A DNA stretch of 64,000 bases. It comes from a virus. Its lineage: Duplodnaviria > Caudoviricetes. The stretch covers positions 1-64,000 of the IMG/VR virus record IMGVR_UViG_3300037117_000082; one strand, given 5' to 3'. Position 1 is the stretch's first letter; each line of letters begins with the position of its first letter. Of the stretch, positions 13,774 to 53,107 are shown piece after piece. Position numbers and translations under genes: made by a program. Under the pieces are notes generated by a model, which was not told where the DNA came from, did not search any database, and saw only the letters and a program-made list of their open reading frames with translations.

Positions 13774-16700
13774 CTACCCGTCATGCGTGGCCCGGAGGTG
13801 TTCCCATTCCTCGTGCGTGCGCTCGCTGGCAGCCGCTACCTCTGGCGTGACGTGACGGTGCGGTCCCCATTCCAGGTTCCCGTGCCGCCAGCGCTCCACC
13901 GCCGCGACCGCCATCGCGATGGCCTCGCTTTCCGGGACGCCGTGGTCGCGCTCGATCGCCGCCGCGATGTTTTGCACGTATGCGGGCAACTGCTGACGTT
14001 CCGGCACCTTCTTGCTCGGCGTGTGCCACAGTCCCTCATGCCCGAGCGGGTGATGCACGGTGGACAGGTACGGGGTGGCGGCCGACTTGCCGACATCGCC
14101 GAAGGGGAAGTGCTTCACGTCCTCGCCGCGATGCACGCTCAGGTGAGTGAAAGTCACCGGCATGTGCGGCAGGGGGTCCGGCAGCGGGTCGCCTTCTTCG
14201 AGGTACGCGATAGTGCAGTGCGGCTTGTAGCCGTGCTCGCGTGCCTTCGCGTCCGGTGACTGGAGTTCAGCCAGCGCCTCATGCAGCGACTCGGCACCGG
14301 GCAGGTTCACGCCAGCCCAGACCGGCACCCCGTCATCACCGGCAGGGAACGAGCCGATGCCGCCGATGGTCCCGGACAGCGGCTGCGTGGCCGCCGCTAC
14401 CCTGCGCGCCATGACGCACGCGAGGCTGAATGCGTCATCATCCACGTCCGGGCCAAGGTAAACCACGGTCACATGGTGATCAGTGATACCGCCCGGCAGG
14501 GGCTCGATCAGCCCTTCCGGCAGGTCCAGGGAGATCATGCCCGACCGCTTGCTGAGGCTGTAGCCGCGCGCCTCTTTCGGTGCGTCCTGGCCCCGCAGGT
14601 CATACGGCGCGAGGCCGTGCACCGAGCCGTCGCCGAGGTTCGCCGCCGTGAAGTTCTTCGTGGAGCGCCCGTCGTCGCCCGCGCCCGGCTTCTGGTCGCT
14701 GAATTGCGAGCTGTGAGTTTCCTCGGCCAGCTTCGCGCCTGCTGCAGTGACCTTGCCCACGTAGGCGACGACGGGACGATCTAGTTCCCTGAACGCGAGG
14801 GCACGGTGATGCCCGTCGATCACGATCAGGTGCGTTCCGGGCTTCGTGTCCGGCCGGTCGATGAGGACGGCCGGCTTGACCGGCCGGCCTGCCGCCTGCC
14901 GGCGCTCGATCTTGGCCTTGAAGCGATCGACCTTGGCGTCCTCGTGGCCGGCCTGCCACTTGTCCGGGGTGTACTCGATCGCGCTGAGCGGGACCTCTTG
15001 CGGGCCGGTCCAGGTAGCGTCCTTTACCCAGGTCAGCGCCGAGGCGGGGTAGTCCTCCAGCAGTTGCGCGTAGACCTGCTCAGCGACAGGGAGAGACGTG
15101 TCCGGGTGCTTCCAGGGTTTGTCGGCCTTGGTAAGGTGCACTGCGGCCGGGGTTCCGTAGGTTGCGGGTTCGAGTCCCGCCTCGCCATCCATGGTTGGCG
15201 GGTAGCTCAATGGGCCCCCATGGACGGGTCCTTGGTAGAGCAGCGGAGCCCCGGCCGCCTTCGCAGTCCCCGGCGCGGGAGGCGCAACACCCTGCTTCGG
15301 CGGATCGCTCGGAGCCAGCCAGCAACGACATCCTGGATGCTGGCACGGCTGGGCGACCCCGCCGGGGAACAGGCTCCCCAGCGGAACCGGGCCGGCGTCC
15401 TGGTTGGCCATGCAGCGGGCGCAGACCCTTGAGTCGTTACGGGTGTGCCAGCGGACGTAACTCACGCCTAGCTCGGTGTAGACCCCGAAGGCCCCGTCCG
15501 CGATGGCCTTCTCGATCTCCGTCAGGGCGATCAGCCCGGCGCGGTTCTCAGCGTTAAGGAACGCATCCAGCAGCGCCAGCAGCGCCCCAACGGTGACCGC
15601 GCCGCCGAGGAGCAGCTTCATGAGCGCGACGGTGAACCCGGCGAGCCCGGTGCCGGCCATCTGCCTTACCGCGGCCTGCTGAGCGATCTGGGACGTGTCC
15701 GCCTGCTGCGCCGCCGCGATCCCCTGCCGCTGCCGTGCGGAGGCTCCTGCTGCCTGCATGGCCGCTGCCCGGCCCAGTTCCCGGCCCTCCGCGTGCAAGG
15801 GGGCCAGGATGAGCGCGAGCCGTTGCCGGATCAGGTCCGCGATCATCGACGCGAGAACCGCCGCCGTGACGGCGAGGGTTCCGGCGAGGAACGCCGCGAA
15901 CAGCTTTCCCGCCTCGGTCATCACCGAGGAGAACGCGGCCCCGATCTGCTGCTCGTACTTGGCCGCTAGCTGGAGGTCGTGCTCCCAGGCGAGCCACGCC
16001 TGCCGCTGCTGGCCGCCGCTAGCGGCCCGCGATTTTGGGAGCGCCCGCCTCGCCTCGGTGAGCACCTCGGCGATGCCTATGCCCTTCGTCACGTCCTCGG
16101 TGATCATGGCCATGACGTGACCGGGGATATGGACCGGCTGCCAGGTAGCGGGGTCGCGGCCCTTCCTGACGTGCCTGCCCAGCGCGTCCAGCTCGCTCAG
16201 CGCGGCCTTGGAGCTGCCGCTGCCGAGGAACGGTGGCGGCCCGCAGTTCGGGCAGCCCTGGACGTGCAGGGCCTGATCCCGGAACACTTCCTCGCACCAG
16301 GGAGATCCCTTTGCCTCGGCCTCGGGCACCCGGTAGCCATCGCAGCGGTAGCACTCGTGGCCCGTCTCGTGCTCGCCGGCGCCGCCGCAGCAGGCACAGG
16401 GCGCGAGGGCAGCCAGGGCTTCCTTGCTCAGCGACGCGGCGTCCGGCGCGGTCAGGATCTCCGCGAGGACATGATCCGCCGGCCTTGGGGCGGCAGGCTC
16501 CGCGATGGCCTTGAGCATCATCCGCGACCCGATCGCCGTCACCGCGTGGGCGGCGTAGCTGCGGGGCAGGCTGCATTTCACGCACGCGGACTGGTCACCG
16601 GGGACGTACGGCTCGTAACGGTGCAGCCCGTCCGGGTCGCTCGCTGCCGCCTTCGAGGACGAGCCCGAGACCGCCGCCGCTGCCTCCGCCGCTCCCGCGA

Positions 16701-18414
16701 TCGCCGCCGAATGCGACGGTGTCGGGTCACGGTCCGGCTGAGCCGGGGGGACATGCGTGGTGCCCGGCATGTGCCCCTGCGCCAGCGCGGGCCTGCCGCT
16801 GACCTGTCCCTCGTTCGCGCCGGGTGATCCGCCGGCGGAGCCGCCCTGCGCGCCCTGCATCTGCTGCGTCACCGATGGCAGCCCGGCGAGCTGCCCGCCC
16901 GGCTGGCCCGTCGCCGGGTCCACGGAGCCCAGCAGCATGACCCCGTTCGCGGATGCCCACAGCGGGTCCTGGGTGACGGGCAGGCCCCACGGGTCCAGGC
17001 CCAGGACGCCACGGCCCTCGTCCACCGAACGCAGGCCGGTGCCGATCTGCGTTCCCAGCAGGCCCGTCAGGGAGACCTCGTCCTCGTCCTCTTCCAGGCC
17101 CTCGAACAGGAACTGCATGTCCGTCTGCCCGCAGGCAACCTGGATGACCTTGTCCAGCAGTCCCTGCTTGAGGAACTGGAGCATCGGGACGAGGGACTTG
17201 CGCTGGTGGCGCGCGGCATCGGCCTTGCTGGCCTGGTTCATCGCGCTAGGACTTTGAACCGTAGCAACCTGGGGCATCAGGCCCAGTTCGGTAGGCTGGA
17301 CCTGAAATGCCATGCAGACCTCAGTTGACACGATCATGTCGAACTGGTCCGCCAGCTCGGGCGGCTTCTGCGGCATCACCTTGGAGCCAGGGGGGAGCAC
17401 GACGATCTGGTGCTTCATCCCCACGTCGCCGGCGATGACGTTCAATGCCGTTTCCAGATCGCGGATCTGGGATGCCGTCATGGCCGCGTCGCCGGGGGAG
17501 ACGAACAGGCCGGGGATGCTTCCCGAGCGGTAGTAGTCGAGCTGGTAGCCCTGCTTGGAGAGCCCGGACATTACCGGGACAAGGGCCTGCTCAATGGGCG
17601 GGCTGCCGTAGGGCCGGTTCGCCGCGCGGGTGTACGGCAGGTAGAGGAGCTGGTCGCCGCGGTAGTCCTGCACCTTGGTTTTCCGCAGGTCATCCGACAG
17701 GTCCGCGTCGCACATGATCGAAATGTTGTCCGTGCGCGGAATGCCGTAAATGTACTGTTCGTAGGCTGGCGAGGGGGGTGTCGGGCGCGATCCGTGCAAA
17801 TCGACCAAAGGCCGGAAACTGGACCCGTCGATGATCTCTAGCGCCGACAGGTCAGACCCCATGAGGCCGCGCCCGCGCACCCTTGACGGACGTAGGTACA
17901 CGCTTGCGGCGTCAATGGCGTATATGTCCTCCAGGAGGGTATCCAGCCAAGACGACCACGAGCCGTACTCAGGGTCCGGGTTCTTGAAGAACCTGATGCA
18001 CTCGCTGCGGCGCTCCCCGAAGTCCCGCATGGCCTTGTGATCGCCGCGCATCGCCTTCGCCGCGTCCTTCGTGGGAACAATGTCCCACTCCAGGGCGCGG
18101 ATTTCGGACTTGAGTAGCTGGATGCAGGCCCGCGCGACCGAGTAGAGCTGCGCGAGTGACCGCAAGGTGCCGAAATCGGTAAGAGTGACACCTTCGGTAC
18201 GAGGCAGTGATCTGGGTATATTCCACCCGAAAGGGTACTGCCAGCGTCGCGGCATCGGCCGGTCGAAGCCATCCGGCGGCTGGTCGATCGGGATCGGGTC
18301 AAGGGGCGAGAGCGGGCCGAACGAGCCGTCAGTGAAGTCCGCGGCCGGGCGCGGGAGGGCGGACCCGTAGCCGCCTCCCCAGGCGTCGCCCATCGCGGCA
18401 ACGGCGGGAGACAT
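13774..18414 (-). CDS. portal polyprotein: portal + MuF minor head + ParB-like + 2H phosphoesterase + C-terminal domain
   Basis: Portal (VARACIQ, YGSPPIEQ, VCMAFQVQPTELG, VDEGRGVLGLDP); MuF (WHTRNDSRVCARC...QHPGCRC); VIDGHHR; HVT/HCT 2H motifs; LPAYVQNIA...AVERW domain. Confidence 0.88.
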   Translation of the reverse strand: MSPAVAAMGDAWGGGYGSALPRPAADFTDGSFGPLSPLDPIPIDQPPDGFDRPMPRRWQYPFGWNIPRSLPRTEGVTLTDFGTLRSLAQLYSVARACIQLLKSEIRALEWDIVPTKDAAKAMRGDHKAMRDFGERRSECIRFFKNPDPEYGSWSSWLDTLLEDIYAIDAASVYLRPSRVRGRGLMGSDLSALEIIDGSSFRPLVDLHGSRPTPPSPAYEQYIYGIPRTDNISIMCDADLSDDLRKTKVQDYRGDQLLYLPYTRAANRPYGSPPIEQALVPVMSGLSKQGYQLDYYRSGSIPGLFVSPGDAAMTASQIRDLETALNVIAGDVGMKHQIVVLPPGSKVMPQKPPELADQFDMIVSTEVCMAFQVQPTELGLMPQVATVQSPSAMNQASKADAARHQRKSLVPMLQFLKQGLLDKVIQVACGQTDMQFLFEGLEEDEDEVSLTGLLGTQIGTGLRSVDEGRGVLGLDPWGLPVTQDPLWASANGVMLLGSVDPATGQPGGQLAGLPSVTQQMQGAQGGSAGGSPGANEGQVSGRPALAQGHMPGTTHVPPAQPDRDPTPSHSAAIAGAAEAAAAVSGSSSKAAASDPDGLHRYEPYVPGDQSACVKCSLPRSYAAHAVTAIGSRMMLKAIAEPAAPRPADHVLAEILTAPDAASLSKEALAALAPCACCGGAGEHETGHECYRCDGYRVPEAEAKGSPWCEEVFRDQALHVQGCPNCGPPPFLGSGSSKAALSELDALGRHVRKGRDPATWQPVHIPGHVMAMITEDVTKGIGIAEVLTEARRALPKSRAASGGQQRQAWLAWEHDLQLAAKYEQQIGAAFSSVMTEAGKLFAAFLAGTLAVTAAVLASMIADLIRQRLALILAPLHAEGRELGRAAAMQAAGASARQRQGIAAAQQADTSQIAQQAAVRQMAGTGLAGFTVALMKLLLGGAVTVGALLALLDAFLNAENRAGLIALTEIEKAIADGAFGVYTELGVSYVRWHTRNDSRVCARCMANQDAGPVPLGSLFPGGVAQPCQHPGCRCWLAPSDPPKQGVAPPAPGTAKAAGAPLLYQGPVHGGPLSYPPTMDGEAGLEPATYGTPAAVHLTKADKPWKHPDTSLPVAEQVYAQLLEDYPASALTWVKDATWTGPQEVPLSAIEYTPDKWQAGHEDAKVDRFKAKIERRQAAGRPVKPAVLIDRPDTKPGTHLIVIDGHHRALAFRELDRPVVAYVGKVTAAGAKLAEETHSSQFSDQKPGAGDDGRSTKNFTAANLGDGSVHGLAPYDLRGQDAPKEARGYSLSKRSGMISLDLPEGLIEPLPGGITDHHVTVVYLGPDVDDDAFSLACVMARRVAAATQPLSGTIGGIGSFPAGDDGVPVWAGVNLPGAESLHEALAELQSPDAKAREHGYKPHCTIAYLEEGDPLPDPLPHMPVTFTHLSVHRGEDVKHFPFGDVGKSAATPYLSTVHHPLGHEGLWHTPSKKVPERQQLPAYVQNIAAAIERDHGVPESEAIAMAVAAVERWRHGNLEWGPHRHVTPEVAAASERTHEEWEHLRATHDG
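15143..15258 (+). ncRNA. circularly permuted tRNA-like RNA (YrlA/Y-RNA-like topology), antisense within portal gene
   Basis: 16-bp closing stem 15143-58/15243-58; T arm GCGGG-TTCGAGT-CCCGC; acceptor CTCGCCA/TGGCGGG closed by a loop; D arm TA-GCTC-AAT..TTGGTA-GAGC. Confidence 0.7.
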
Positions 18415-32830: not shown

Positions 32831-33753
32831 CCCGCGCGCTGCGTGCCGTCCCCAGCACCACGATGCCCCTGTGGGATGCCGTGGCCAGCTACCTGGCCAC
32901 CATGGACCACCCGGAGAGCGCCGGAACGCGGAAGCAGTACGGGTCGATCCTGAACCGCATGGCCAGGGGCATCGGCGAGGAAAGGGACGTGCAGGCCGTC
33001 ACCGCCGCCGACCTTACGGCGTGGATGAAGGCCACGTCCGGGGATCGCGCCCCCCGGACGTGGAACCTGGCGAGAGTATGCCTGCGCTCCGCATGGTCGT
33101 ACTGGGGGCAGGCAGGCTGGGCTGACCCGGAGGTTGCACGGGGCATCCCGCCGCGGAAGGTCGCGGAGGACCGTGACCGGGCAATACCGGGAGACGTGCT
33201 GGAGGCACTGCTGGCGGACCAGAAGATCCCGCTGCGGGAGCGCGTGCTCTGGCGGATGATGCTGGAGACCGCGGCGAGGGAGTCGGAGCTGCTGCGGCTT
33301 GACGTCGGCGACCTGGACCTGCCGCACCACCGTGCGCGGGTAACACGCAAGGGAGGCGACACAACCGGCCTGTGCTGGCAGTCGGGCACCGCATCGGCGC
33401 TTCCCCGGCTGCTGAAAGGGCGCAGGAGCGGCCCGCTGTTCGTCACGTCCCGGAAGGCGCCGGCGGGAACGCCGCGCGCCGACGTGGCACCTGACGGCCG
33501 GGGAAGGCTGTCAGCAAGGCAGGCGCAGGACACGTTCATGAAGGCAACCCGGGACTTCCCCGGAGGCCCCTGGACGCTGCACCAGATCCGCCACCGCGCA
33601 CTCACCGACGCGGCCGAGGCAGGCGCGTCGACCGCGATGATGATGGCGCTGAGCGGCCACAAGAACGTCAAGAGCCTGCTGATCTACGCCAGGGTAGGGA
33701 CGGACGCGCTGGCAGCCTGGCAGGCCGATCGTGACCCGAACCGGAGGCACTGA
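32827..33753 (+). CDS. tyrosine recombinase (Xer-like, no arm-binding domain)
   Basis: Catalytic set: ARESELL (R), RKGG (K), HQIRH, SGH, IYA (Y). Confidence 0.92.
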   Translation: MTRALRAVPSTTMPLWDAVASYLATMDHPESAGTRKQYGSILNRMARGIGEERDVQAVTAADLTAWMKATSGDRAPRTWNLARVCLRSAWSYWGQAGWADPEVARGIPPRKVAEDRDRAIPGDVLEALLADQKIPLRERVLWRMMLETAARESELLRLDVGDLDLPHHRARVTRKGGDTTGLCWQSGTASALPRLLKGRRSGPLFVTSRKAPAGTPRADVAPDGRGRLSARQAQDTFMKATRDFPGGPWTLHQIRHRALTDAAEAGASTAMMMALSGHKNVKSLLIYARVGTDALAAWQADRDPNRRH

Positions 33754-34245: not shown

Positions 34246-34487
34246 GCGGCACGCTGCCTTCGCAGGATGCGAGGATCAACGCCGCCCGTGCGGATTCCGT
34301 GCTCGCGGACGTCCTTGTCTGCCTGCGCAACATCGTCAGGGTGATACAGCGGGTGGCCGCGTTCCGACAGGCCGCGCGGACTCAGGAAGCCGCGCGATGC
34401 CCAGGTGCGGATCGTGGACGGGCTGACGCCGGCAAACTTGGCTGCCTGGGCCGTGGTGACCAGGCCATCCCCCCGGGTAATGAGCAT
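34242..34487 (-). CDS. MerR-type HTH DNA-binding protein
   Basis: LVTTAQAAKFAGVSPSTIRTWASRGFL...PLY. Confidence 0.8.
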   Translation of the reverse strand: MLITRGDGLVTTAQAAKFAGVSPSTIRTWASRGFLSPRGLSERGHPLYHPDDVAQADKDVREHGIRTGGVDPRILRRQRAA

Positions 34488-34603
34488 GCTCACCTGCCCG
34501 GGAATGCGAAATGACCCGGGCCGCAATCGGGTCCGGGTCATGGATGTGTTAAGTCCTATGCCAGTGTCGTACCCCCGGTGACCTCTGTCAACTAGCCGCG
34601 CGA

Positions 34604-35545
34604 TCATGCCGCGTCTAATCTGGCTGCCCTCACCCGGTCAAGTTCCGCCGTGCTCAGCGTGGCTGCGTAGAGCCGGGTCCAGGCCCGGTACTCGGCCGTA
34701 TTCAGCAGCCTGCCGCAAGCCCGGCATTCAGCTTCGTACGCGCTGCCCTGGACGCGCTCCAGCATCAGCAGGTCGCACGACGGGTCCGGGCACGGCACGT
34801 CCAGCCGTTCCACCATGCGCGTCTCCCCGAGCACCGAGCGGGAGCGGTACTGCAGCGCCATGATCTCGCTGCCCGCATCCGCTCCGGACAGTTCCACGGT
34901 CACTTCCGCGTAGCCGCCGATCCGGTTGGTGCGCCCGTGGCAGCCTTCCGGGATCTTCCCCAGGTCATGCAGGGAGTAGGCACGTGACATGGCGTCGGCG
35001 GGCAGCTCGAGCAGGCGGTCCAGGTGCGCGGCGAGGGTGCGGCAGAACGCGGCGACCTGCCGGCCGTGGTCCGGGCGGCGGCGCTGCTCATCGGTGTCGG
35101 GCATCGTGAGGCCCGCGTCCATGCGGCAGCGCTCGTCCCAGGACGCGAGGATGTCGACGTGCTCCCGCAGCAGCGCGTCGATGTCTGCGCGCAGGGGCAG
35201 CGGCGCGGAGTGGCCCTTGATGGCTACCTTCTCGCCGCCCTGGCCCTTGCTGCCGAGTTCCTGGTGAAGGCGTACCCACAGCTCGGGGATGAGGGTGAGC
35301 GCCCGGTAGACCTGGTTACGGCACTTCTGGCAGAACGCCGCATAGCAGAGAGCGGGAGTCTTGACGGTCTTCCCGTCGTCGCCCACGGCAGCGGTTGAGC
35401 CTGAGCAGTAGTCACCGCGCCGGCATTCGTGCTGGCCTGCGGCTGGCGATCGGGGTGGCGGGGTGGTGGCGTGATCCCGCCGCCGCTCGCGGAAGCTATC
35501 GGAAGCCTGAAAATCAACCTGCCAGTAGTTCCCGCGATTGGCCAT
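34604..35545 (-). CDS. Zn-finger phage protein, probable late-transcription regulator
   Basis: CQKC...L..IPELW..L, PLPLR, CP...C...CRAC; TTGACA follows directly downstream (34591-86). Confidence 0.5.
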   Translation of the reverse strand: MANRGNYWQVDFQASDSFRERRRDHATTPPPRSPAAGQHECRRGDYCSGSTAAVGDDGKTVKTPALCYAAFCQKCRNQVYRALTLIPELWVRLHQELGSKGQGGEKVAIKGHSAPLPLRADIDALLREHVDILASWDERCRMDAGLTMPDTDEQRRRPDHGRQVAAFCRTLAAHLDRLLELPADAMSRAYSLHDLGKIPEGCHGRTNRIGGYAEVTVELSGADAGSEIMALQYRSRSVLGETRMVERLDVPCPDPSCDLLMLERVQGSAYEAECRACGRLLNTAEYRAWTRLYAATLSTAELDRVRAARLDAA

Positions 35546-45920: not shown

Positions 45921-46261
45921 GCCGCCGAACGCTCTACAAGGCACAGGACGGCATCTGCCGCTGGTGCTCACTGCCGCTTCCCGAGGACTTCGCGGACACG
46001 GAGATTGATCACATCATCCCGAGATGCAGGGGCGGTCCTGACAAGCCCTGGAACAAGCAGCTACTCCACCGGGAGTGCAACAGGGGCCCGGGCGGCAAAT
46101 GGAAGGCGCTCACCGAGGAAGCCCGCGCACTAGCCGGCGAGCACGGTGTCACCCTGCGTGAGCCAACGCCGGCGTGGCTCTACGGCGGGCGCAGCTGGCG
46201 TGATGCCGTCAACCTGGACCCGGGCGCAGCATCCGACCCGCACTGGCCGGCCGGCGCCTGA
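45917..46261 (+). CDS. HNH endonuclease
   Basis: QDGICRWC...EIDHIIPRCRGG...N.QLLHRECN; ATGA overlap. Confidence 0.85.
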   Translation: MSRRTLYKAQDGICRWCSLPLPEDFADTEIDHIIPRCRGGPDKPWNKQLLHRECNRGPGGKWKALTEEARALAGEHGVTLREPTPAWLYGGRSWRDAVNLDPGAASDPHWPAGA

Positions 46262-46446
46262 TGGCCTCGGCAAGGATCGAGCCCCCCGACCCCGGCAGCT
46301 GGGGAGCCGTGAGGCTGCTGATAGCTCACCTGAACCGGCTGAACTACCACGTCGATGAGGCGAGATCGTTTTGCGACGGGGAGCCCATCTCCACGCTGCT
46401 GCTCAGCTAGCCCGCAGCATTGAGTGACGGCGTGTGCGCGTTCCGC

Positions 46447-46487
46447 TTGACAGTGGTAACCACACCGGGATACGTTGTGCTTACCAC
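46447..46487 (+). promoter_or_regulatory. sigma70 promoter with two operator palindromes
   Basis: TTGACA-18 nt-TACGTT; GTGGTAACCAC in the spacer and GTGCTTACCAC directly after the -10. Confidence 0.75.
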
Positions 46488-46504
46488 CTAGCGAGGGAGC
46501 GGAC

Positions 46505-46726
46505 ATGGGCAGGCAGCCAGAGGCCAGGATCGGCGACGTGATCAGCGGGACGTGCGTCACGTTCGGGAGCCAGAAGACCGGCATCGTGGCCGAGGTCATC
46601 GGCCCCATCGCCTTGCCGGACTGCGGCGGCTACCGCTACCAGCTCACCGAGACCGGCGAGTTCTACGCCAGTGGCAAGCCCGTCAGGCCGATCGTGTTCT
46701 ACGGACGGCACGAGGCGCTGGCCTGA
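46505..46726 (+). CDS. hypothetical protein
   Basis: GAGGGAG RBS after the promoter. Confidence 0.6.
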   Translation: MGRQPEARIGDVISGTCVTFGSQKTGIVAEVIGPIALPDCGGYRYQLTETGEFYASGKPVRPIVFYGRHEALA

Positions 46727-47085
46727 TGTCCGAGCGCCACAAGTCCCCGATGCTCGGCTGGCACCCGCCGGCCGAGCTATCGGCGTGGGCAAGAGCAGAA
46801 GCGCAGCGACGGGGAGTGCGCCTCTCGGTGATCCTTACCGAGGCCCTTTCCCGTCTCCGTGCCTCTGCCGGCTTCGATCACTTCCGCATCGGCGGCTTCG
46901 ATGACGAGGGCCGGGCCGGCGCTGAGTACACCGAGCCAGTGCAGGTCACCTGCGGCCTGTGCGGTACCTCGCAGGCGTTCACGTGGCGGGACGACGGGGG
47001 CGCCGACAGGACCGAGAGCCTCGCCGTGCTCACCGCATGGGCGCAGGATCATGAGTGCCAGCCACCTACAGGGGAGGACCGATGA
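46726..47085 (+). CDS. RHH-like regulator with Zn-binding C-terminus
   Basis: HKSPMLGWHPPAEL..W...AQRRG..LS.IL.EAL. Confidence 0.6.
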   Translation: MSERHKSPMLGWHPPAELSAWARAEAQRRGVRLSVILTEALSRLRASAGFDHFRIGGFDDEGRAGAEYTEPVQVTCGLCGTSQAFTWRDDGGADRTESLAVLTAWAQDHECQPPTGEDR

Positions 47086-48699
47086 GCGAGACAGCACGCA
47101 AGCCATCGAAGCCGTGGCGCGTAGACGGCCCGGCGGATCGCGGCAACGGCCAGACTTACCGTAGCCAGAGCGCAGCCTACGAGGCGGTGCGCGAGCTGGC
47201 CGGATTCGGTCACGACAGCACCGTCTGGCACTGGGAGGACGGCCGGTGGCGCACCTACGACAAGGTGAGCGCCGCTGACATGACCGCCGCATTCGATACG
47301 CAAGCCGTGACAGCTACCGGGACTACGGAGGAGGGGTCATGATCTTCGGTCACACGCACGACTACGAGGCAGTAGCCGTAGAGCACTCAGCAACGGGCCC
47401 GTTCTCGCCCACGGGAACCGCGATCCTCTGGCGCTGCAAGTGCGCTCACGTGTTCTCCGAGCGCATCGAGGGAAAGTGGACGCTCGGGCAGGTGCGCGGG
47501 GAGCGGGAGTTGACGGAAGCTGAGCGGATCGAGTTCGAGGCTGAGCTCGGCGAGGCAGCGGAGAGGCTGTCATGACCTACGCAGGCTGCCGCCGGGCAAT
47601 GGCCCCGCAGAGTACCGCTCCTCCGCAACGACCCAGATCAGCCCCGTAGGGGGACCGGATAAGACCGCTTAGGTTCAAGAGCGGAAGTAGGAGGACGGCA
47701 ACATGAGCACAACCGCCAGCGAGCACCCAAGGTGCGGATACTGCTACAAGAAGATCCGCATGCAGCGCAACGGCGCGTGGTATCACGACCACAACGCCAG
47801 CGTGTCCTGTAACCCCGGCTCGGGGTCGGACCGGAAGGCTTTTCCGGCGCCCGCTAGGGACCGAAGGGAAAGTGCGGCATGACAACAGGCAAGATCAGCG
47901 AGCGGCAGGCTCCCAATCCCGGCAAGTGTGACCACTGCGGAACGCGCTTCGCTGCTGGCGTCCAGATCGTCTCCGATGATGATGGCGGCTGGCTTTGCGG
48001 GGACTGCGCAGAGGCTGACTGGCTTTGCTCTGACGGGCCGACCTGGCTTTGCTCGGGCACGTCATGAGTGAGATGAGCGCCGACCACCTGTCCGCCTGGG
48101 GCAGCCAGCCATGGTGCCACGCCTGCCAGTCGCGGACAGTCCGCTGGCATTGCGCCGACCGTGGCTGCCGCAAGGTCATCTGCCTGAAGTGCATGGCTGA
48201 GACGATCTGCACGGGTGTGCGGGTGCTGCTCACCTACCAGGGAGTTGAGCGGGTGTGAGCGAGCTGCTGACCCTCTACTGGGTGCGTCCCTGCAATGCCC
48301 GGGATGACCCGGAGCCCGGCGTCCGGCTGGAGCGCGCAGGCGAACTGATGAACAGGCTGTCGCCCACTGAGGCTCGCGAGCTTGGCGCCGAGATGATCCT
48401 CGCCGCTGGCGCCAGTGAAACGCAGTGGGGACAGGGCAGCGGTGACCGCGATGCGTGAGCTGCCACCCGAGGCTGTCAACGTTGCCGCGGACGCCATTGA
48501 GGCGCACCCGGACTGGAACCTGCCATGGGCCACCGCAGAGGCGATGGCGCGCGCCGCGCTTGAGGCCGCCGGGCCGGTCACTGAGGCTCTGGTAATCGGC
48601 TACCTGGTCGATGGCAACGTCTGGCACCCCTCAGACGTAACGATCGTGCGGCGGGAGACTACCGCTACCGCAACTAAGCGGCCGACGGAGGAGCTATGA
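47082..48699 (+). other. run of small hypothetical genes (47082-47342, 47339-47575, 47703-47882, 47879-48067, 48064-48258, 48255-48458, about 48451-48699)
   Basis: Chained ATGA/GTGA overlaps and RBSs. Confidence 0.55.
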
Positions 48700-49088
48700 C
48701 TGAACATCTGACGCTTGACGGACTGCTCATGCGCGTCCAGGCCATTGATGACGTCCTCGACTCGTCGGGAAGCCCGGACTATCTCGCGCAGCCGCTCGCC
48801 CGGCACTGGGCACGGGTGACCAAGGTCTGCGAGGAAGCCGGTGAGGTGTGGCAGGCCCTGAGCAAGTGGACCGGCGAGAACCCGCGCAAGGCCTGCGGCA
48901 CTAAGGACGAACTGCTGGGGGAGCTGGGTGACACGCTCGGCGCGGCTATCTGCGCCATCCAGCACCTCACGAAGGACACCGAGGCAACCTGGGCCGTCGT
49001 CTCAGCGGCCGTGGACAAGTGCCATTCCAGGCTGACGGAGCCTGCGCTGTCTACCGCTTTGCTTTCTAAGCGGCAGGAGACGCCATGA
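48696..49088 (+). CDS. MazG-like nucleotide pyrophosphohydrolase
   Basis: KVCEEAGEV...GENPRK...ELGD (EExxE...ExxD). Confidence 0.85.
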   Translation: MTEHLTLDGLLMRVQAIDDVLDSSGSPDYLAQPLARHWARVTKVCEEAGEVWQALSKWTGENPRKACGTKDELLGELGDTLGAAICAIQHLTKDTEATWAVVSAAVDKCHSRLTEPALSTALLSKRQETP

Positions 49089-49306
49089 CCGACTACCGCG
49101 TTGAGTTCTCTATTACGCGGCGCAAGGACGGCGAGGGCGACTTCACGGAGATCGGCTTCGGATCGTCGGGAGCGCTCGACAGTATCGACGCCGCCTCGTT
49201 CGAGGTTGCGTCCATGATCCAGAACTGGCAGTGGGAAACCCAGCCCGGCATGCCTGACCCCGAGTCGCTCCGCGTCGCGGAGCGCGACCGGGAGCTGCCG
49301 GAATGA
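49085..49306 (+). CDS. hypothetical protein
   Basis: ATGA overlap, AGGAG RBS. Confidence 0.6.
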   Translation: MTDYRVEFSITRRKDGEGDFTEIGFGSSGALDSIDAASFEVASMIQNWQWETQPGMPDPESLRVAERDRELPE

Positions 49307-49821
49307 CGGGGCCGTGTACCGCTAACCTGCCGAAGCGGAAGGACTGAGCGATGACCAAGCAGACTGTAGAACCGGGCGACCGGGTACTGATCCCCGCCAT
49401 CGTGGAGTGCCTGGGCCACGACGATAACCACGTCATCGTCCGGGTCGCTGGCATCCCGGTTCAGGTGTCTACCGCTTCCTGTGAAGAACGGAAGGATTGC
49501 CCTTGAGGCAGACCCCGTGAGCTACGCCAGCCACCGCCACCTAGAGCGGCACGCTGGCAGTCGCCTTCGCCTTCGACACGGCCACCTGGATCTAGCCGCG
49601 TGGCTACCGCGCGCAAGCCCCCGCGACTGCCACAATCCCCCATGTGCGCTTATCCCTGGCAATCCTCCTAGCCCTGGCGCTCAACCTCGCTGCCTGGCGC
49701 TGGGACACCCGGAGTGAGCGCAGGAAGCCACGACGGCGGCGATGGTGGCGGGGTCCGGGCTGTCACTGCCGGTAGCGGCTAGGCTTCGGGGAGACAGGAA
49801 AGAGCGCACCGAGGGGGAGCC

Positions 49822-49983
49822 GTGGCACCACCGATCGAGACCGCACTGCCGGACCTGCGCGGCATCCCCCTCGGTGATGTCCCTGGCCGTTACCCGGCGC
49901 TGGACGCCGTGCTCGAGCGGCTGGTGGACGTACCGCGGGTAGTTCCGGTGGCCGGGTTCAACTCCTCGTTGGCGCCGTACTAG
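49822..49983 (+). CDS. FxSxx-COOH (FxsA-like) RiPP precursor peptide, 53 aa
   Basis: GAGGGGGAG RBS + GTG; MAPPIETALPDLRGIPLGDVPGRYPALDAVLERLVDVPRVVPVAGFNSSLAPY*. Not in the ORF track. Confidence 0.8.
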   Translation: MAPPIETALPDLRGIPLGDVPGRYPALDAVLERLVDVPRVVPVAGFNSSLAPY

Positions 49984-49991
49984 GTGCGCTC

Positions 49992-51307
49992 GTGAACTAC
50001 CAGGACGCCTGCGCAGCCGTTGCCCTCCCGTGGCGCACCGGACGGCACAACAGCCAGGTCGCCTACGCGCAGGCAGGGGAAACGGCCAGCGACGATGACG
50101 TGATGGTCGGCACGTTCATGGCCCCGGAACTGGCAGAGGATGCCGTGAGAGCTCACAACGCGGCAGTCGAGGCGCGGCAGATGAGTCCTGCTGCGCCCGC
50201 TGGTGACGCAATGTGGACGTGCCCTGACTGCAACGAGCCTGCGCCTCACAAGCGCGGAGAATGCCCGGTGTACTGATGGCCAGGATGCTAGGCCGGGAGC
50301 GGCGCGCTGGCTGCGGCAACTTCCGCTGCCGTCTCTGCGGTCCCGGTGATACGCGGTGGGCCAAGCGACGGGAAGCGCGGGAGGCCGAGCGCGAGATCGA
50401 GGCTGACTACGACCACGCCGCTCCGGTTGCCCTGGCGCTGAGGCCGTGGCGCATCCTGCGGGAGGACCAATGACCTACAGCGCACCGCTCCGTGACCGCA
50501 TAGCCGTCAGGATCTGCAACGCGGTCATGCGGGTACTGGCAACCGAGCACTACCGGAAGATGATCACCGGGGCGATACGGCTTGGACTCCAGACCGCAGC
50601 GGACGAGTCGCTGGCGCTGGTCACGATCTCGCCGGACGTGCCGCCCGTCGTGAGCTTCGATGAGCGCGACCTGGCCGTCATCGCCATGTACGACGAAGAC
50701 GAGGGCTGATGCCCGGCACCCGCTGGGATGCCCGTGCAGGCCGCATGATCCGGATCCCGGAGTCCTGCGATCACTGCGGGCGCAGGCTGGCCAGCGGGCA
50801 TGCAAGAGGCAGCAACGGGGAGAGGCTCTGTCACCCGGACAACCCGGGCCTGCCTGACTGCGCAAGGCGCGTGGCCGCTGGTGAGATACTCGGCGCGCTC
50901 AAGGGCATCGGGCAGCCGCCGCCGGGGGTCACGGGCATCACCGAGGAGGCCCGATCATGACCACGCCAGCCGCGCTCCGTGAGGACGCTGACCAGTTCAT
51001 CGAACTCGTCCGGCTGGACTGGGCGGTCACCAAGACCTGGAACCGGCTGCACGCCGTCAAACCGGAGACCTGGACCGATGAGCACCGGGACGACATGGAG
51101 TGCGAGTGGGCCGTCCTGGCGCCTGTGCGGCTTGCCTGCGGGCGCACCGCAGCGTACCTGTGCATCCCCGGGCTGTTCTCGCGGATGGGCGCTCAGCGCT
51201 GCACGGGCTGCTGCCGAGCTACCGGGATGCCGCAGGGGAAGGGATCGCCGAAGAACGACGACGCCTGCCGCGTGATCCTGGGACTGCCGACCGATCCCGA
51301 CCGCTAG
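49992..51307 (+). other. run of small hypothetical genes (49992-50276, 50276-50473, 50470-50709, 50709-50960, 50957-51307)
   Basis: Overlapping starts and stops; several Cys-rich. Confidence 0.55.
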
Positions 51308-51384
51308 GATTGCCTCTCCGCGTCCACGGAGACAGCCCGGCAGGGCATCTAGGTCCCGAACCTGCCGGGCTTTCCCGTTGCCAG

Positions 51385-52189
51385 TCACGTCTCCGGGCCG
51401 CAAGTAAGGCACACGTTCTGAGTCATGACGTGCTCGCCATCCGGCATGTCCAGGAAGCGCACCGCGTAGCCGTCATACGGCGTGAACGGAACCCCGCAGG
51501 CCGGGCACGGAAACTCCCCGCCCGCGTCGGCCGGTTCCTCGTAGTCGTCTGGGTGAAAGAGCCGGACGTGATCGAGCAGCCCGGTGGCAATGCCGAGATC
51601 GGCGTCAATATCCGAACCGCACCGCAGGCAGGCTGCGCTCATTCCGCCACCGTGCCTTCCCGCTCGGCAGGCAGCCGGCGCATCATCATCGGGTGGTCAC
51701 GGTCGCCGCTGGCCTTGAACTCAATCTTCACGCTGGTGACTGGACCTGGCGGGATGCACTCAGGGTCAACGGGGCCGAAGTTGCTGACCGTGAGCGGCGT
51801 GTCCACCCTGATGTCCAGGCCGTGGGGCTTGGCCGCCTCGAACTCGTAGCCGGTGCCGTCCGCGAACTCCACGCGGGTAAGGACGCGGGAGACCTGCGGG
51901 ACCGGATCGAAGGCAGTGCGCGCGGGCTCGGTCATGGTCGTGATCCCGCCGCGCCTTCCCGCCCGGCATCCGGCAGGTACTCGATCACGAATCCGCCGCC
52001 GTCCAGTGCCCGGATCCGGGCGCCCTTGCTGAGCCGTATGCCCGCGTCGCCGGCGTCACTGGTGACGGTGATGCTGCCGCCGGGGCCGAACTCCACGCCG
52101 AAGCCGGAGCCGTCCAGCCCGGCAACCTGGGTTGCGCTGTAGAGGCTGCACCCGACGATTTCGATGGGCGCCTCTGCTGTCTCGGTCAT
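51385..52189 (-). other. three small hypothetical genes (51932-52189, 51639-51935, 51385-51642)
   Basis: ATGA overlaps; GAGAGGA RBS before 52189. Confidence 0.55.
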
Positions 52190-52211
52190 GGTCTTGATCC
52201 TCTCAAATTGC

Positions 52212-52268
52212 AGTCTCATCATGAGACTTCTGCCTGTCTCATCAAGAGATTCAGTCTCATCATGAGCC
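52212..52268. repeat. three palindromic repeats GTCTCATCAWGAG
   Basis: 52213-27 (perfect GTCTCAT-C-ATGAGAC), 52236-50, 52254-68. Confidence 0.8.
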
Positions 52269-52333
52269 TGCCGGTTGCTGCGAAACGCCCGTCTGGCCTG
52301 CATGTACTTGACGTGATCTTCCTCCGGTCGGTA

Positions 52334-52822
52334 TCACTTAGTGGTCCGGGAAGTGACCGCGCGCCGCGATCTGAAAGCCTCCGCGCGGGACACATGGACC
52401 GCGCCGGCCAACTCGACCAGCGCAGCGCCCGGCGGCAACTCCCCTCCCGGCGAGTCAAGCAGGGCAAGCGCCCGCAGCCGCACGTCGGCATGGCCGAGGT
52501 CGGACGTGAGCATTTCCCGCAGGGTCTCCTCGAAGTCGCGTGACTCGGCGGCGGAACGCGGCAGGCACGACGGATGGATGCCCAGCCCAATGAGCTTGTG
52601 CCGGATCTTCCGCTCGCTGCACCCCGCGTGGCAGAACCAGACGAGCCGGTGCTTCCCCTCGCTGATCTTGAGCGAGCGCTTCGCGTCGTCGTGACCGGGG
52701 CAGTACGCCGTGAAGTACCAGCGGCCCGTGTCGGTGTCCATGCGCAGATCTGCGGGCGCTCCCGGCACCTTGGGGCGCACGTGCTGGTGGAGGCACTCCC
52801 TGGACGGCACATCGCATGCCAC
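52334..52822 (-). CDS. primase-type (CHC2-like) Zn-binding domain + C-terminal HTH
   Basis: CPGHDD..RSL.I......CHAGC; LVELAGAVHVSRAEAFR. Confidence 0.75.
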   Translation of the reverse strand: MACDVPSRECLHQHVRPKVPGAPADLRMDTDTGRWYFTAYCPGHDDAKRSLKISEGKHRLVWFCHAGCSERKIRHKLIGLGIHPSCLPRSAAESRDFEETLREMLTSDLGHADVRLRALALLDSPGGELPPGAALVELAGAVHVSRAEAFRSRRAVTSRTTK

Positions 52823-53107
52823 GGCGCGCTCAGACGGCGAGAGGGATTGCGGGGCGCGGCTGATCGGGGAGGCTGTCGCCAGTTATGCTCTGCATAGGCT
52901 GCACCGGGTTTCTTAGCCGAGACGGTGACGGCTTAGGCCCGGCGAGTGTTTCCGCACTCGTTCGGGCCGCCGTTTTTTGTTGTCCTCGAACAGTCTACCG
53001 GTTGTAAGCACCCCGACACGGTGTGTGCGTGCAGGTTTTCGACCCTCCGCCCGCTACCATCCACGCCGGGGGGCCGGGGAGACCCGATGGGGATCGGGTC
53101 TCCCGCC

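What the first reader, a model, noticed from the sequence alone, without database searches (positions are those of the whole stretch)
49822..49983. Orphan FxSxx-COOH RiPP precursor carried by a phage
Seen: a 53-aa ORF below the track cut-off, with a strong RBS, leader LPDLRGIPL...LDAVLERL and core VAGFNSSL plus a 3-residue APY extension. Known: actinobacterial FxsA peptides (LxDL leader, terminal FxSxx) are cyclophane-crosslinked by the radical SAM enzyme FxsB, in operons with FxsC and FxsT proposed to be conflict systems. No FxsB is in this window. Inference: a decoy or mimic that titrates or hijacks a host Fxs pathway, that is, a peptide-based anti-defence gene. It sits near MazG in an accessory operon.
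Basis: partly seen in the sequence, partly recalled or inferred. Interest (0 to 1): 0.85.

Follow-up and report, generated by a model that had tools for sequence, protein, structure and literature searches.

The report
Phage-borne orphan FxsA peptide precursor
A complete 115-kb soil actinomycete phage carries, without any modifying enzyme, a copy of the small peptide gene that its likely hosts keep beside a ring-forming enzyme and suicide-type immune proteins, so the phage probably feeds a look-alike peptide into that host system.

Summary
ORF 49822-49983 (+, 53 aa) passes the NCBIfam FxSxx-COOH model TIGR04268 (34 bits, cut-off 28, whole profile).

- **Orphan status:** the window is part of a complete 115,040-bp phage genome with terminal repeats. 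It has no FxsB, no radical SAM enzyme, and no FxsC or FxsT.
- **Conservation:** a diverged 113-kb sister phage keeps the gene at the same position and also lacks a radical SAM enzyme. Two further IMG/VR records carry orphan copies.
- **Likely hosts:** the closest bacterial copies are in Streptosporangiaceae. There the same peptide subclass lies directly upstream of fxsB-fxsC-fxsT.
- **Co-occurrence:** one Streptosporangium genome holds chromosomal fxsAB loci together with two prophage-type orphan copies.
- **APY tail:** the 3-residue tail is real and identical in three other runs, but atypical. All 11 bacterial subclass members end at FxSxx.

The anti-defence reading is plausible but untested, and the host system itself is uncharacterised. 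This scan already noted phage-borne orphan FxsA on other DNA: 43 notes in at least 33 genomes. My literature searches found no paper on it.

The parts
49811..49819 (+). Shine-Dalgarno-like run GAGGGGGAG, 2 nt upstream of the GTG start
   Evidence: Read directly from the sequence. Function is inferred.
49822..49983 (+). Orphan fxsA-like gene: 53-aa FxSxx-type RiPP precursor homologue (GTG start, TAG stop)
   Evidence: ORF. TIGR04268 gives 34 bits against cut-off 28 over the full profile. It is the only such place in the genome. Homologues begin at the same position. A syntenic homologue exists in sister phage L002.
49822..49956 (+). Leader part (residues 1-45) with the conserved T7, P10-D11-x-R13, P16-L17, L31-x-R33 and V41-P-V-A44
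   Evidence: These columns are invariant in the 11-sequence alignment A1. D11, R13, P16, L17, V41, V43 and A44 remain invariant when bacterial copies are added in A3.
49957..49971 (+). Core motif F46-N-S48-S-L50 (FxSxx). F and S are the residues that FxsB/MscB-type enzymes cross-link in characterised relatives.
   Evidence: F46 and S48 are invariant in A1 and A3. The chemistry comes from a review passage in PMC11002830: C4 of Phe to C-beta of Ser. It was not tested for this peptide.
49972..49980 (+). Atypical 3-residue C-terminal tail A-P-Y after the FxSxx core
   Evidence: It is identical in contigs of runs X3, X4 and X6. It is absent from the 92%-identical variant P0012, which ends FTSGI, from sister phage L002, and from 11 of 11 bacterial subclass members.
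49992..50276 (+). Conserved downstream partner gene (94 aa, no family), starting 8 nt after the fxsA stop
   Evidence: It is 51% identical to the ORF directly after fxsA in L002, tblastn E 4e-16. No Pfam or PHROG hit. The Atlas gave only scores under 0.8.
50261..50473 (+). Small Cys-rich ORF (70 aa), weakly similar to a gene of the same block in L002 and in a Streptosporangium prophage-type contig
   Evidence: BLASTP against L002 10652-10987 gives E 4e-4 over 31 residues only, which is weak. tblastn against L014 gives E 7e-4. L002 against L014 is 45% identical, E 7e-19.
48696..49088 (+). MazG-like nucleotide pyrophosphohydrolase (130 aa), 730 nt upstream on the same strand
   Evidence: Pfam PF03819 gives 22.2 bits against cut-off 22. 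PHROG 4856 gives E 0.0045. Both are marginal.

Best explanation
**What is shown.** The gene encodes a true homologue of the actinobacterial FxsA (FxSxx) precursor peptide. A complete, probably temperate 115-kb phage carries it as a stand-alone gene.

**What is inferred.**
- The peptide is made during infection or lysogeny of a filamentous actinomycete, probably Streptosporangiales, that has its own fxsA-fxsB(H)-fxsC-fxsT locus.
- Because the phage copy keeps both the leader motifs and the F-x-S core, the host's FxsB(H) maturase recognises it. That enzyme is a radical SAM/SPASM cyclophane synthase, fused to an aKG-HExxH hydroxylase.
- The phage-made product then stands in for, or competes with, the host's own modified peptide at the FxsC/FxsT apparatus (TIR effector plus ParA-STAND-TPR switch).
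- This keeps the predicted suicide-type immune system silent or desensitised.

The phage supplies only the cheap, specific part, the peptide, and borrows the enzymes.
For: **Family identity.** TIGR04268 scores over its cut-off across the whole profile. It is the only such place in the genome, and 0 of 14 controls ring.

**Orphan on a complete phage.** The record has direct terminal repeats and is rated 100% complete. It has portal, TerL and Erf genes. TIGR04269 and PF04055 find nothing at E<=1. tblastn with Microbispora FxsBH, FxsC and FxsT finds nothing better than E 0.56.

**Retention.**
- Sister phage G001 (113,096 bp, DTR, complete) has the gene at the syntenic place, followed by the same downstream gene, and has no radical SAM enzyme.
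- dN/dS against that copy is about 0.49, from dN 0.32 and dS 0.65.
- A contig in run X3 has 22 substitutions and 4 indels at 49622-49763 but none listed inside fxsA or the next gene.
- Both further IMG/VR records found carry orphan copies. The complete 119,829-bp record has three in tandem. Neither record has a radical SAM enzyme.

**Leader and core are both conserved.** T7, P10, D11, R13, P16, L17, L31, R33, V41-A44, F46 and S48 are invariant in A1. This fits a peptide that must be recognised and modified, not a leader-only decoy.

**Hosts have the system.**
- The 3 of 3 bacterial relatives found are Streptosporangiaceae.
- The Microbispora copy lies directly before FxsB+HExxH, FxsC and FxsT.
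- FxsB is over its cut-off in 63 of 121 sampled genomes of that family.
- 8 of 11 bacterial peptides of the phage's subclass abut a long FxsB frame.

**Co-occurrence in one genome.** Streptosporangium sp. G004 has fxsAB on contigs C13 and C17. It also has orphan fxsA copies beside a minor tail protein, an endolysin and a holin on C93 and C102. C102 shares the three-gene block with sister phage L002. The prophage copies end in the same eight residues as the host copy next to FxsB.

**Literature.** The Fxs partners are predicted immune or apoptosis proteins.
Against: - No experiment or expression data exist, and no RNA holder is listed (not evidence either way).
- The function of the Fxs system and of its peptide is unknown. 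The authors I read propose a toxin, an antiviral molecule or an alarm signal, not an inhibitory ligand, so the direction of the effect (silencing) is my inference.
- The host of this phage is not identified. The family-level link rests on peptide similarity and on one shared gene block of the sister phage.
- FxsB was not found in 58 of the 121 sampled family genomes.
- The APY tail departs from the FxSxx-COOH rule in this very copy (0 of 11 bacterial subclass members have a tail). It might prevent maturation or recognition.
- dN/dS of 0.49 over 49 codons is only moderate constraint and equals that of the unrelated neighbour, 0.46.
- Orphan chromosomal copies also occur (L030), so orphan status alone is not phage-specific.
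Confidence: 0.45

Rival explanations
1. Lysogenic-conversion gene. The temperate phage gives its lysogen an extra precursor, which the host FxsB matures. The product strengthens or retunes the host's Fxs response against other phages, or acts as a diffusible signal among hyphae. It benefits prophage and host together rather than disarming the host.
For: - The phage has two tyrosine-recombinase genes.
- In Streptosporangium sp. the orphan copies lie just after the lysis genes (endolysin, holin), a classic moron place.
- In S. carneum a copy lies beside a truncated integrase and a tRNA.
- The authors read here propose that the peptide is an antiviral molecule or an alarm signal.
- One complete phage carries three diverged tandem copies, which suits diversification of a signal or effector.
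Against: - In this window the gene lies among many small + strand ORFs of early or accessory type, not next to the lysis or integration genes.
- No receptor or exporter is encoded beside it.
- Nothing shows expression in lysogens.
Confidence: 0.25
2. Dead-end decoy. The peptide binds host FxsB(H), or the leader-processing step, through its leader but is not converted to an active product. In this copy the APY tail masks the C-terminus. Maturation of the host's own FxsA is therefore blocked by competition.
For: - The leader motifs are fully conserved.
- This copy has a 3-residue tail that none of the 11 bacterial subclass members has.
- The tail is stable in three other runs.
Against: - The 92%-identical variant P0012, the sister phage, and all four copies in G125 and G126 end canonically at FxSxx. 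The tail is therefore not the general phage strategy.
- F46 and S48 are invariant in all phage-type copies, which a leader-only decoy would not need.
Confidence: 0.15
3. The peptide acts independently of any host Fxs system, for instance as a small phage protein with another partner such as the conserved downstream gene. Or it is a neutral passenger picked up from a host.
For: - The fxsA gene and the next gene are kept as a pair in two diverged phages.
- No binding or modification has been shown.
- FxsB was not found in 58 of 121 sampled family genomes.
Against: - Conservation covers exactly the positions that define the bacterial family.
- The gene is retained in at least three complete phage genomes.
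- There are no differences in a variant whose flank is 22 substitutions away.
- A passenger would decay.
Confidence: 0.1

Closest known systems
FxsA / FxSxx-COOH precursor peptides (NCBIfam TIGR04268) with the FxsB / MscB radical SAM-SPASM three-residue cyclophane synthase (TIGR04269)
   Same: The peptide gives a full-length HMM match over the cut-off. It shares the D-x-R-x-x-P-L leader, the R at position 33, the V-x-V-A stretch and the F-x-S core with bacterial copies. Its subclass is the one that lies directly before the long FxsB(H) gene in Streptosporangiaceae.
   Different: It is encoded by a phage with no FxsB, FxsC or FxsT anywhere in the complete genome. It has a 3-residue tail after FxSxx, so the motif is not at the carboxyl end. 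Modification has not been shown.
Fxs-linked TIR-ParA-STAND 'apoptosis' systems (FxsC/FxsT) as described by comparative genomics (PMC7159879 section 24; bioRxiv 10.64898/2026.10.19.760177, passages)
   Same: The peptide family is the one these papers couple to the TIR and STAND-TPR proteins. The Microbispora locus fetched here has that architecture.
   Different: Those papers treat the peptide as a host product: toxin, antiviral molecule or alarm signal. The passages I read do not mention a phage-borne copy.
Phage-encoded stand-ins for a labile host immunity component, such as pseudo-ToxI RNA of phage phiTE or T4 Dmd (recalled from memory; no call)
   Same: Only the proposed logic is shared: the phage supplies its own copy of the small component that keeps a suicide system quiet.
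   Different: Those are an RNA or an unrelated protein acting on toxin-antitoxin pairs. Here the stand-in would be a ribosomal peptide that must first be modified by a host enzyme. This is an analogy only and has not been tested.
Phage arbitrium peptides AimP with their TPR receptor AimR (recalled from memory; no call)
   Same: Both are short phage-encoded precursor peptides whose processed C-terminal part would act on a TPR-type receptor.
   Different: Arbitrium phages encode their own receptor and need no radical SAM modification. This phage encodes neither a receptor nor an enzyme.

Membership tests
FxsA / FxSxx-COOH RiPP precursor (NCBIfam TIGR04268) | Sequence scores over the curated cut-off of the family model along the whole profile | tested here: met
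   The score is 34 bits against cut-off 28, E 2.4e-8, on profile positions 1-44 of 44. The six-frame search gives 33.1 bits.
FxsA / FxSxx-COOH RiPP precursor (NCBIfam TIGR04268) | F-x-S motif in the core, with F and S as the cross-linked residues | tested here: met
   F46-N-S48 is present. Both residues are invariant in alignments A1 and A3.
FxsA / FxSxx-COOH RiPP precursor (NCBIfam TIGR04268) | The FxSxx motif ends the protein (free carboxyl two residues after Ser) | tested here: not met
   FNSSL is followed by APY and then the stop. Of 26 bacterial hits, 16 end exactly at FxSxx, including 11 of 11 in this peptide's subclass. One hit (L035) has FxSxx plus a 4-residue tail. I therefore file this copy as a homologue of the family with a variant C-terminus, not as a canonical FxSxx-COOH peptide.
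FxsA / FxSxx-COOH RiPP precursor (NCBIfam TIGR04268) | Encoded next to an FxsB-family radical SAM/SPASM maturase | tested here: not met
   The 115,040-bp genome has no TIGR04269 or PF04055 match at E<=1. The best tblastn with FxsBH is E 0.82. In bacteria, 8 of 11 subclass members abut FxsB.
FxsA / FxSxx-COOH RiPP precursor (NCBIfam TIGR04268) | Phe C4 to Ser C-beta cyclophane installed by FxsB/MscB | not testable with these tools
   The chemistry comes from a review passage. The FxsB-domain plus peptide complex job gave no verdict (see Tried and rejected).
Phage anti-defence gene | Presence of the gene raises phage success on hosts that carry the targeted defence system | not testable with these tools
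   This needs plating assays. The Fxs system itself is functionally uncharacterised.
Phage anti-defence gene | The targeted system is present in the host range of the phage | tested here: inconclusive
   The host is not identified. The closest bacterial peptides are 3 of 3 Streptosporangiaceae. FxsB is over the cut-off in 63 of 121 sampled genomes of that family. One Streptosporangium genome has both fxsAB loci and prophage-type orphan copies.

The most novel reading that the evidence does not exclude
The Fxs locus is a peptide-guarded abortive-infection system. The host's modified FxsA peptide would be a short-lived ligand that holds the FxsT (ParA-STAND-TPR) switch and the FxsC TIR NADase off. 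When a phage shuts down host gene expression, the ligand is lost and the system fires. Phages of filamentous actinomycetes would escape by encoding their own precursor, which the still-present host FxsB(H) matures into a surrogate 'antidote'. This would be the first case of a virus borrowing a host RiPP enzyme to make an immune-silencing peptide. The C-terminal variants, such as the APY tail here and the three tandem copies elsewhere, would reflect an arms race with the TPR sensor.
Probability: 0.2. Interest if true: 0.85.

Novelty: new variant of a known kind. Interest (0 to 1): 0.66.

Why it matters
FxsA/FxsB chemistry is known, but nobody knows what the peptide does or whether the linked TIR-ParA-STAND genes are really immune genes. 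Phages that keep only the peptide gene are an independent, evolutionary pointer that the peptide is the control point of a phage-relevant host system.

They also turn the question into simple experiments: co-express the phage peptide with host FxsB, and plate phages with and without the gene on Fxs+ and Fxs- hosts. If confirmed, this would add a new class of viral counter-measure or manipulation, a host-matured ribosomal peptide. It would also give RiPP chemists natural substrate variants such as the C-terminally extended form.

Tried and rejected
- **Local Pfam-A and PHROGs scans of the peptide:** no hit. The database's precomputed tag PF27839.1 on P0001 and P0002 could not be reproduced or named from my calls.
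- **GenBank phage isolates (INPHARED):** tblastn gave 6 records, all at E>=0.5 and inside unrelated genes. I rejected these as chance. blastn of 6 kb gave no match.
- **IMG/VR with the single peptide:** 108 pattern hits, none confirmed.
- **Representative-library search:** 9 hits. Three are long proteins (268, 615 and 529 aa) that match only 22-35 residues. I set these aside as not related, and only P0004 was read.
- **Complex prediction of the FxsB rSAM/SPASM domain (alignment A2) with the phage peptide (A1):** no verdict. Scores were 0.23 and 0.03, under the mark of 0.32, and the controls were not run. This counts neither for nor against binding.
- **The look-up of sequencing runs:** no RNA holder listed, so nothing can be said on expression.
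- **Promoter and terminator scan of 46000-53000:** 0 and 0 sites. This is uninformative for a high-G+C actinomycete phage.
- **Atlas search of the downstream gene:** best scores 0.79, below the level that means anything. I did not pursue the Lar-like lead.
- **L030 (G011:C50):** examined as a possible third prophage copy and rejected. Its neighbours are a TPR protein and an NADH-dehydrogenase-like gene, with no phage similarity.
- **L004 (S. carneum):** it has a truncated integrase and a tRNA next to fxsA but no phage structural genes in the 16 kb read. I call it an integrated-element remnant, not a prophage.
- **TIGR04268 search of G003:** it missed the copy that the search for related loci had found, because only 150 of 673 candidates were scored. 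The 18 of 61 is therefore a lower bound.
- **Papers:**
  - PMC7159879: passages and all of section 24.
  - PMC10114670, PMC11002830, PMC12912966 and bioRxiv 10.64898/2026.10.19.760177: passages only.
  - All other papers: search listings only.
  - Supplements are closed and I did not ask for them. The supplementary neighbourhood tables of the two comparative-genomics papers might list phage-borne copies.
  - 'Not in print' rests on searches of the held library only.
Full report
**1. The observation**

A purine-rich run, GAGGGGGAG, lies at 49811-49819. The ORF's frame has the highest third-position G+C of the three + frames there, 0.75-0.79.

NCBIfam TIGR04268 (FxSxx-COOH cyclophane-containing RiPP peptide) matches residues 10-50 over profile positions 1-44 of 44. 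The score is 34 bits against a curated cut-off of 28, E 2.4e-8. A six-frame search of the whole genome finds this place only, and 0 of 14 control genomes ring. The local Pfam-A copy and PHROGs give nothing.

**2. The genome**

The window is bases 1-64000 of an IMG/VR virus record of 115,040 bp with direct terminal repeats, rated 100% complete. G+C is 65-71%.

PHROG hits on 10 large ORFs include the following:
- a portal inside a 1545-aa fusion, E 6.7e-55
- a large terminase, E 1.7e-34
- a head-decoration domain
- an Erf-like annealing protein, E 1.3e-25

Two tyrosine-recombinase matches (33193-33696, and 89769-90317 outside the window) suggest a temperate life style. No resolvase-type match was found.

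The gene lies in a + strand run of small ORFs (46.5-51.3 kb), most without any family. The MazG-like ORF 48696-49088 is a marginal hit, 22.2 bits against cut-off 22.

**3. Orphan status**

- The FxsB model TIGR04269 and the general radical SAM model PF04055 find nothing in the 115 kb at E<=1.
- I took the FxsA, FxsB+HExxH, acetyltransferase, FxsC and FxsT proteins of a bacterial locus (section 5) as tblastn queries against the whole phage genome.
- Only FxsA hits, at E 4e-7. Every other query stays at E>=0.56.

**4. Relatives on phage-type DNA**

- *Word-indexed protein search.* It found the peptide itself (P0001, on 3 contigs) and P0002 at 65% identity.
- *Exhaustive representative search.* It found 9 proteins at E<=0.001. 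Six are 51-68-aa peptides of the same kind. Three are long proteins matching 22-35 residues, which I set aside.
- *Cluster look-up.* It shows:
  - the identical peptide (P0011) on a 99,234-bp contig
  - a 92%-identical form, P0012, that ends canonically in FTSGI
  - a 61-65%-identical group (P0007, P0013, P0014) on contigs of 113,096 and 112,941 bp
- *The sister phage.* The 113,096-bp contig is in IMG/VR (L002 = G001: DTR, complete) and has no radical SAM match.
  - Its fxsA (52 aa, ending FNSSI) is followed directly by a homologue of the window's ORF 49992-50276, 51% identical.
  - About ten further genes downstream are colinear with the window at 33-77% identity.
  - The gene therefore stood at this place in the common ancestor of two well-diverged phages.
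- *Selection.* Nei-Gojobori estimates for the pair are dN 0.32 and dS 0.65, a ratio of about 0.49. The neighbour gene gives 0.46. This is moderate constraint on few codons.
- *Second IMG/VR scan.* Using a bacterial-subclass alignment, it found two more records.
  - G125 (119,829 bp, DTR, complete) has three tandem copies ending FQSSI, FNSSL and FNASL.
  - G126 is a 30.6-kb fragment rated 34% complete. It has one copy ending FNSSI and a 66%-identical homologue of window ORF 48049-48258.
  - Neither record has a radical SAM match.
- *Complete genomes.* In all, 3 of 3 complete DTR phage genomes examined carry fxsA and no radical SAM enzyme.
- *Isolates.* GenBank phage isolates gave no credible relative.

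**5. The bacterial counterpart and the likely host group**

- The scan of species-representative genomes gave three loci, all Streptosporangiaceae: Microbispora rosea, Streptosporangium carneum and Streptosporangium sp..
- In M. rosea (L003) the 59-aa FxsA (36.6 bits) is followed directly by:
  - a 753-aa protein joining the FxsB rSAM/SPASM domain (569.7 bits) to an aKG-HExxH peptide beta-hydroxylase domain (TIGR04267)
  - an AAC(3)-like acetyltransferase
  - FxsC, with its TIR-like N-terminus and FxsC C-terminal domain
  - FxsT, with a KGGVGR ATPase plus the FxSxx-system TPR protein, 988.7 bits
- All three genomes have FxsB over its cut-off.
- In a sample of the same family, 63 of 121 genomes have FxsB over the cut-off. 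18 of 61 have a TIGR04268 match at E<=0.001. That is a lower bound, because only 96 candidates per genome were scored.
- Reading the 26 peptide hits to their stops shows two leader types.
- The phage peptide belongs to the D-L-R-x-V-P-L ... V-x-V-A-A-F-x-S-x-x type, which has 11 hits.
- Eight of these 11 lie within about 50 nt of a long FxsB frame of 767-854 aa (coordinates). I verified the HExxH fusion only for M. rosea.

**6. Phage-type copies inside a host that has the system**

- Streptosporangium sp. G004 has fxsA-fxsB on contig C13 and an fxsB with an fxsA 4 kb away on C17. It has two further fxsA copies with no fxsB nearby.
- On C93 (L005) the copy follows a minor tail protein (E 5.8e-34), an endolysin (E 6.8e-39) and small membrane proteins.
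- On C102 (L014) the copy follows a holin, E 3.9e-20.
- On C102 it is followed by two small genes that are 44% and 45% identical to the two genes after fxsA in sister phage L002 (E 3e-12 and 7e-19).
- This ties the phage group to Streptosporangium-like hosts. It also shows phage-type orphan copies and chromosomal Fxs loci together in one genome.
- The prophage copies are 54-55% identical to the host's FxsB-adjacent peptide and share its last eight residues exactly.
- In S. carneum the copy lies beside a truncated integrase (PF00589, 68.7 bits) and a tRNA, next to an HTH protein and a NACHT STAND gene. This looks like an integrated-element remnant.

**7. The APY tail**

- All 11 bacterial subclass members end at FxSxx. 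Among all 26 hits, 16 do, and one (L035) has FxSxx plus four residues.
- Among metagenomic relatives, three have one extra residue (P0003, P0009, P0010).
- The tail is not an assembly slip. Contigs of runs X3, X4 and X6 (coded; not marked as the source) cover 49972-49983 with no listed difference. These runs may belong to related campaigns.
- The X3 contig differs from the window by 22 substitutions and 4 indels, all listed between 49622 and 49763. That region covers the small Arg-rich ORF 49644-49775 and its flanks.
- The same contig shows no listed difference in fxsA or the next gene. The gene pair is thus preserved across a recombination or hypervariable boundary.

**8. What is known**

- Review passages state that MscB (InterPro IPR026335) links C4 of Phe to C-beta of Ser in a three-residue cyclophane, and that FxsB forms cyclophanes. 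That MscB belongs to the FxsB family is my equation (earlier scan notes), not something the review passage says.
- Section 24 of PMC7159879 couples FxSxx peptides, a radical SAM-SPASM enzyme and an HExxH protein to a TIR-AP-ATPase-TPR gene and to vWA-MoxR conflict systems. That paper read the HExxH protein as a peptidase; NCBIfam now names it a hydroxylase. It proposes that the peptide is a toxin or a signal.
- A 2026 preprint (passages) maps FxsC to an active TIR plus an inactive TIR, and FxsT to ParA plus an inactive TIR with STAND modules.
  - It calls them functionally uncharacterised.
  - It proposes an antiviral or alarm peptide in multicellular bacteria.
- None of the passages or listings I saw mentions phage-borne copies. 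Supplements were closed.
- This scan has noted the same thing on other DNA: 43 notes in at least 33 genomes. None was found on look-alike sequence of this peptide.

**9. Mechanism**

*Shown:*
- family homology
- phage location
- absence of all partner genes
- retention in related phages
- presence of the partner genes in the likely host family, and in one genome that also holds prophage-type copies

*Inferred:*
- The host FxsB(H) matures the phage peptide.
- The product acts on FxsC/FxsT.
- The effect favours the phage.

I put 0.45 on host-matured mimicry that interferes with the system. The main reason is that the phage copies conserve the core F and S as strictly as the leader. The rivals get:
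- 0.25 for lysogenic conversion, supported by the moron-like positions, the integrases and the tandem diversified copies
- 0.15 for a non-maturable competitive decoy, suggested by the APY tail but contradicted by the canonical ends of all the other phage copies
- 0.10 for an Fxs-independent or neutral role

The complex prediction gave no verdict, and no RNA holder was listed. Neither counts either way.

**10. Verdict**

This is a real, conserved, orphan FxsA-family gene on a complete phage, with an unusual C-terminal tail. It is a new variant of a known kind. The family and its chemistry are known. The phage-borne, enzyme-less setting is not in the literature I could search, but this scan has seen it repeatedly. 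It is worth testing, because it offers a handle on the unknown function of the Fxs system.

Noticed in passing
window 49622-49763 (small ORF 49644-49775 and flanks): A contig in run X3 differs here by 22 substitutions and 4 single-base indels. It shows no listed difference in the next 500 nt, which cover fxsA and the following gene. Run X4 shows a second variant of the same stretch. The ORF encodes a hydrophobic N-terminus followed by an Arg-rich tail. Sister phage L002 has a similar membrane plus Arg/His-rich ORF upstream (9442-9699). This is a hypervariable or recombining segment next to a fixed one.
   Followed up: partly
window 13774-18414 (-): A 1545-aa fusion protein carries portal (phrog_2662), minor-head/MuF-like (phrog_115, 4728) and RNA-ligase-like (phrog_14859, residues 1305-1407) matches. 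It is a portal polyprotein with cargo domains.
   Followed up: no
window 33193-33696 (+), and genome 89769-90317 (outside the window): The phage has two tyrosine-recombinase (PF00589) genes, 66 and 70 bits, although its ends are direct terminal repeats. It is possibly temperate, or one of the two is a Xer-like resolvase.
   Followed up: no
L005 7908-8141 and L014 638-790 (Streptosporangium sp. G004, contigs C93 and C102): Two orphan fxsA copies lie right after the lysis genes of prophage-type regions. The same genome has two chromosomal fxsB loci. Both contigs end close by, so the elements' extent is unknown.
   Followed up: partly
L004 6810-8147 and 13697-15736 (Streptosporangium carneum): This fxsA copy lies next to a 185-aa integrase fragment and a tRNA called tRNA-SeC by ARAGORN, directly after a selD-like gene. 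An HTH gene and a NACHT STAND NTPase lie a few kb away. It looks like an integration hot spot holding a decayed element.
   Followed up: partly
L068 (G125 34320-35068): A complete 119,829-bp DTR phage carries three tandem fxsA-like ORFs with different leaders. They end FQSSI, FNSSL and FNASL, and the last lacks the Ser of FxS.
   Followed up: partly
L003 10427-11260 (Microbispora rosea): An AAC(3)-like N-acetyltransferase gene (182 bits, below the equivalog cut-off of 270) lies between fxsB(H) and fxsC. It may be a further tailoring enzyme of the peptide rather than a resistance gene.
   Followed up: no
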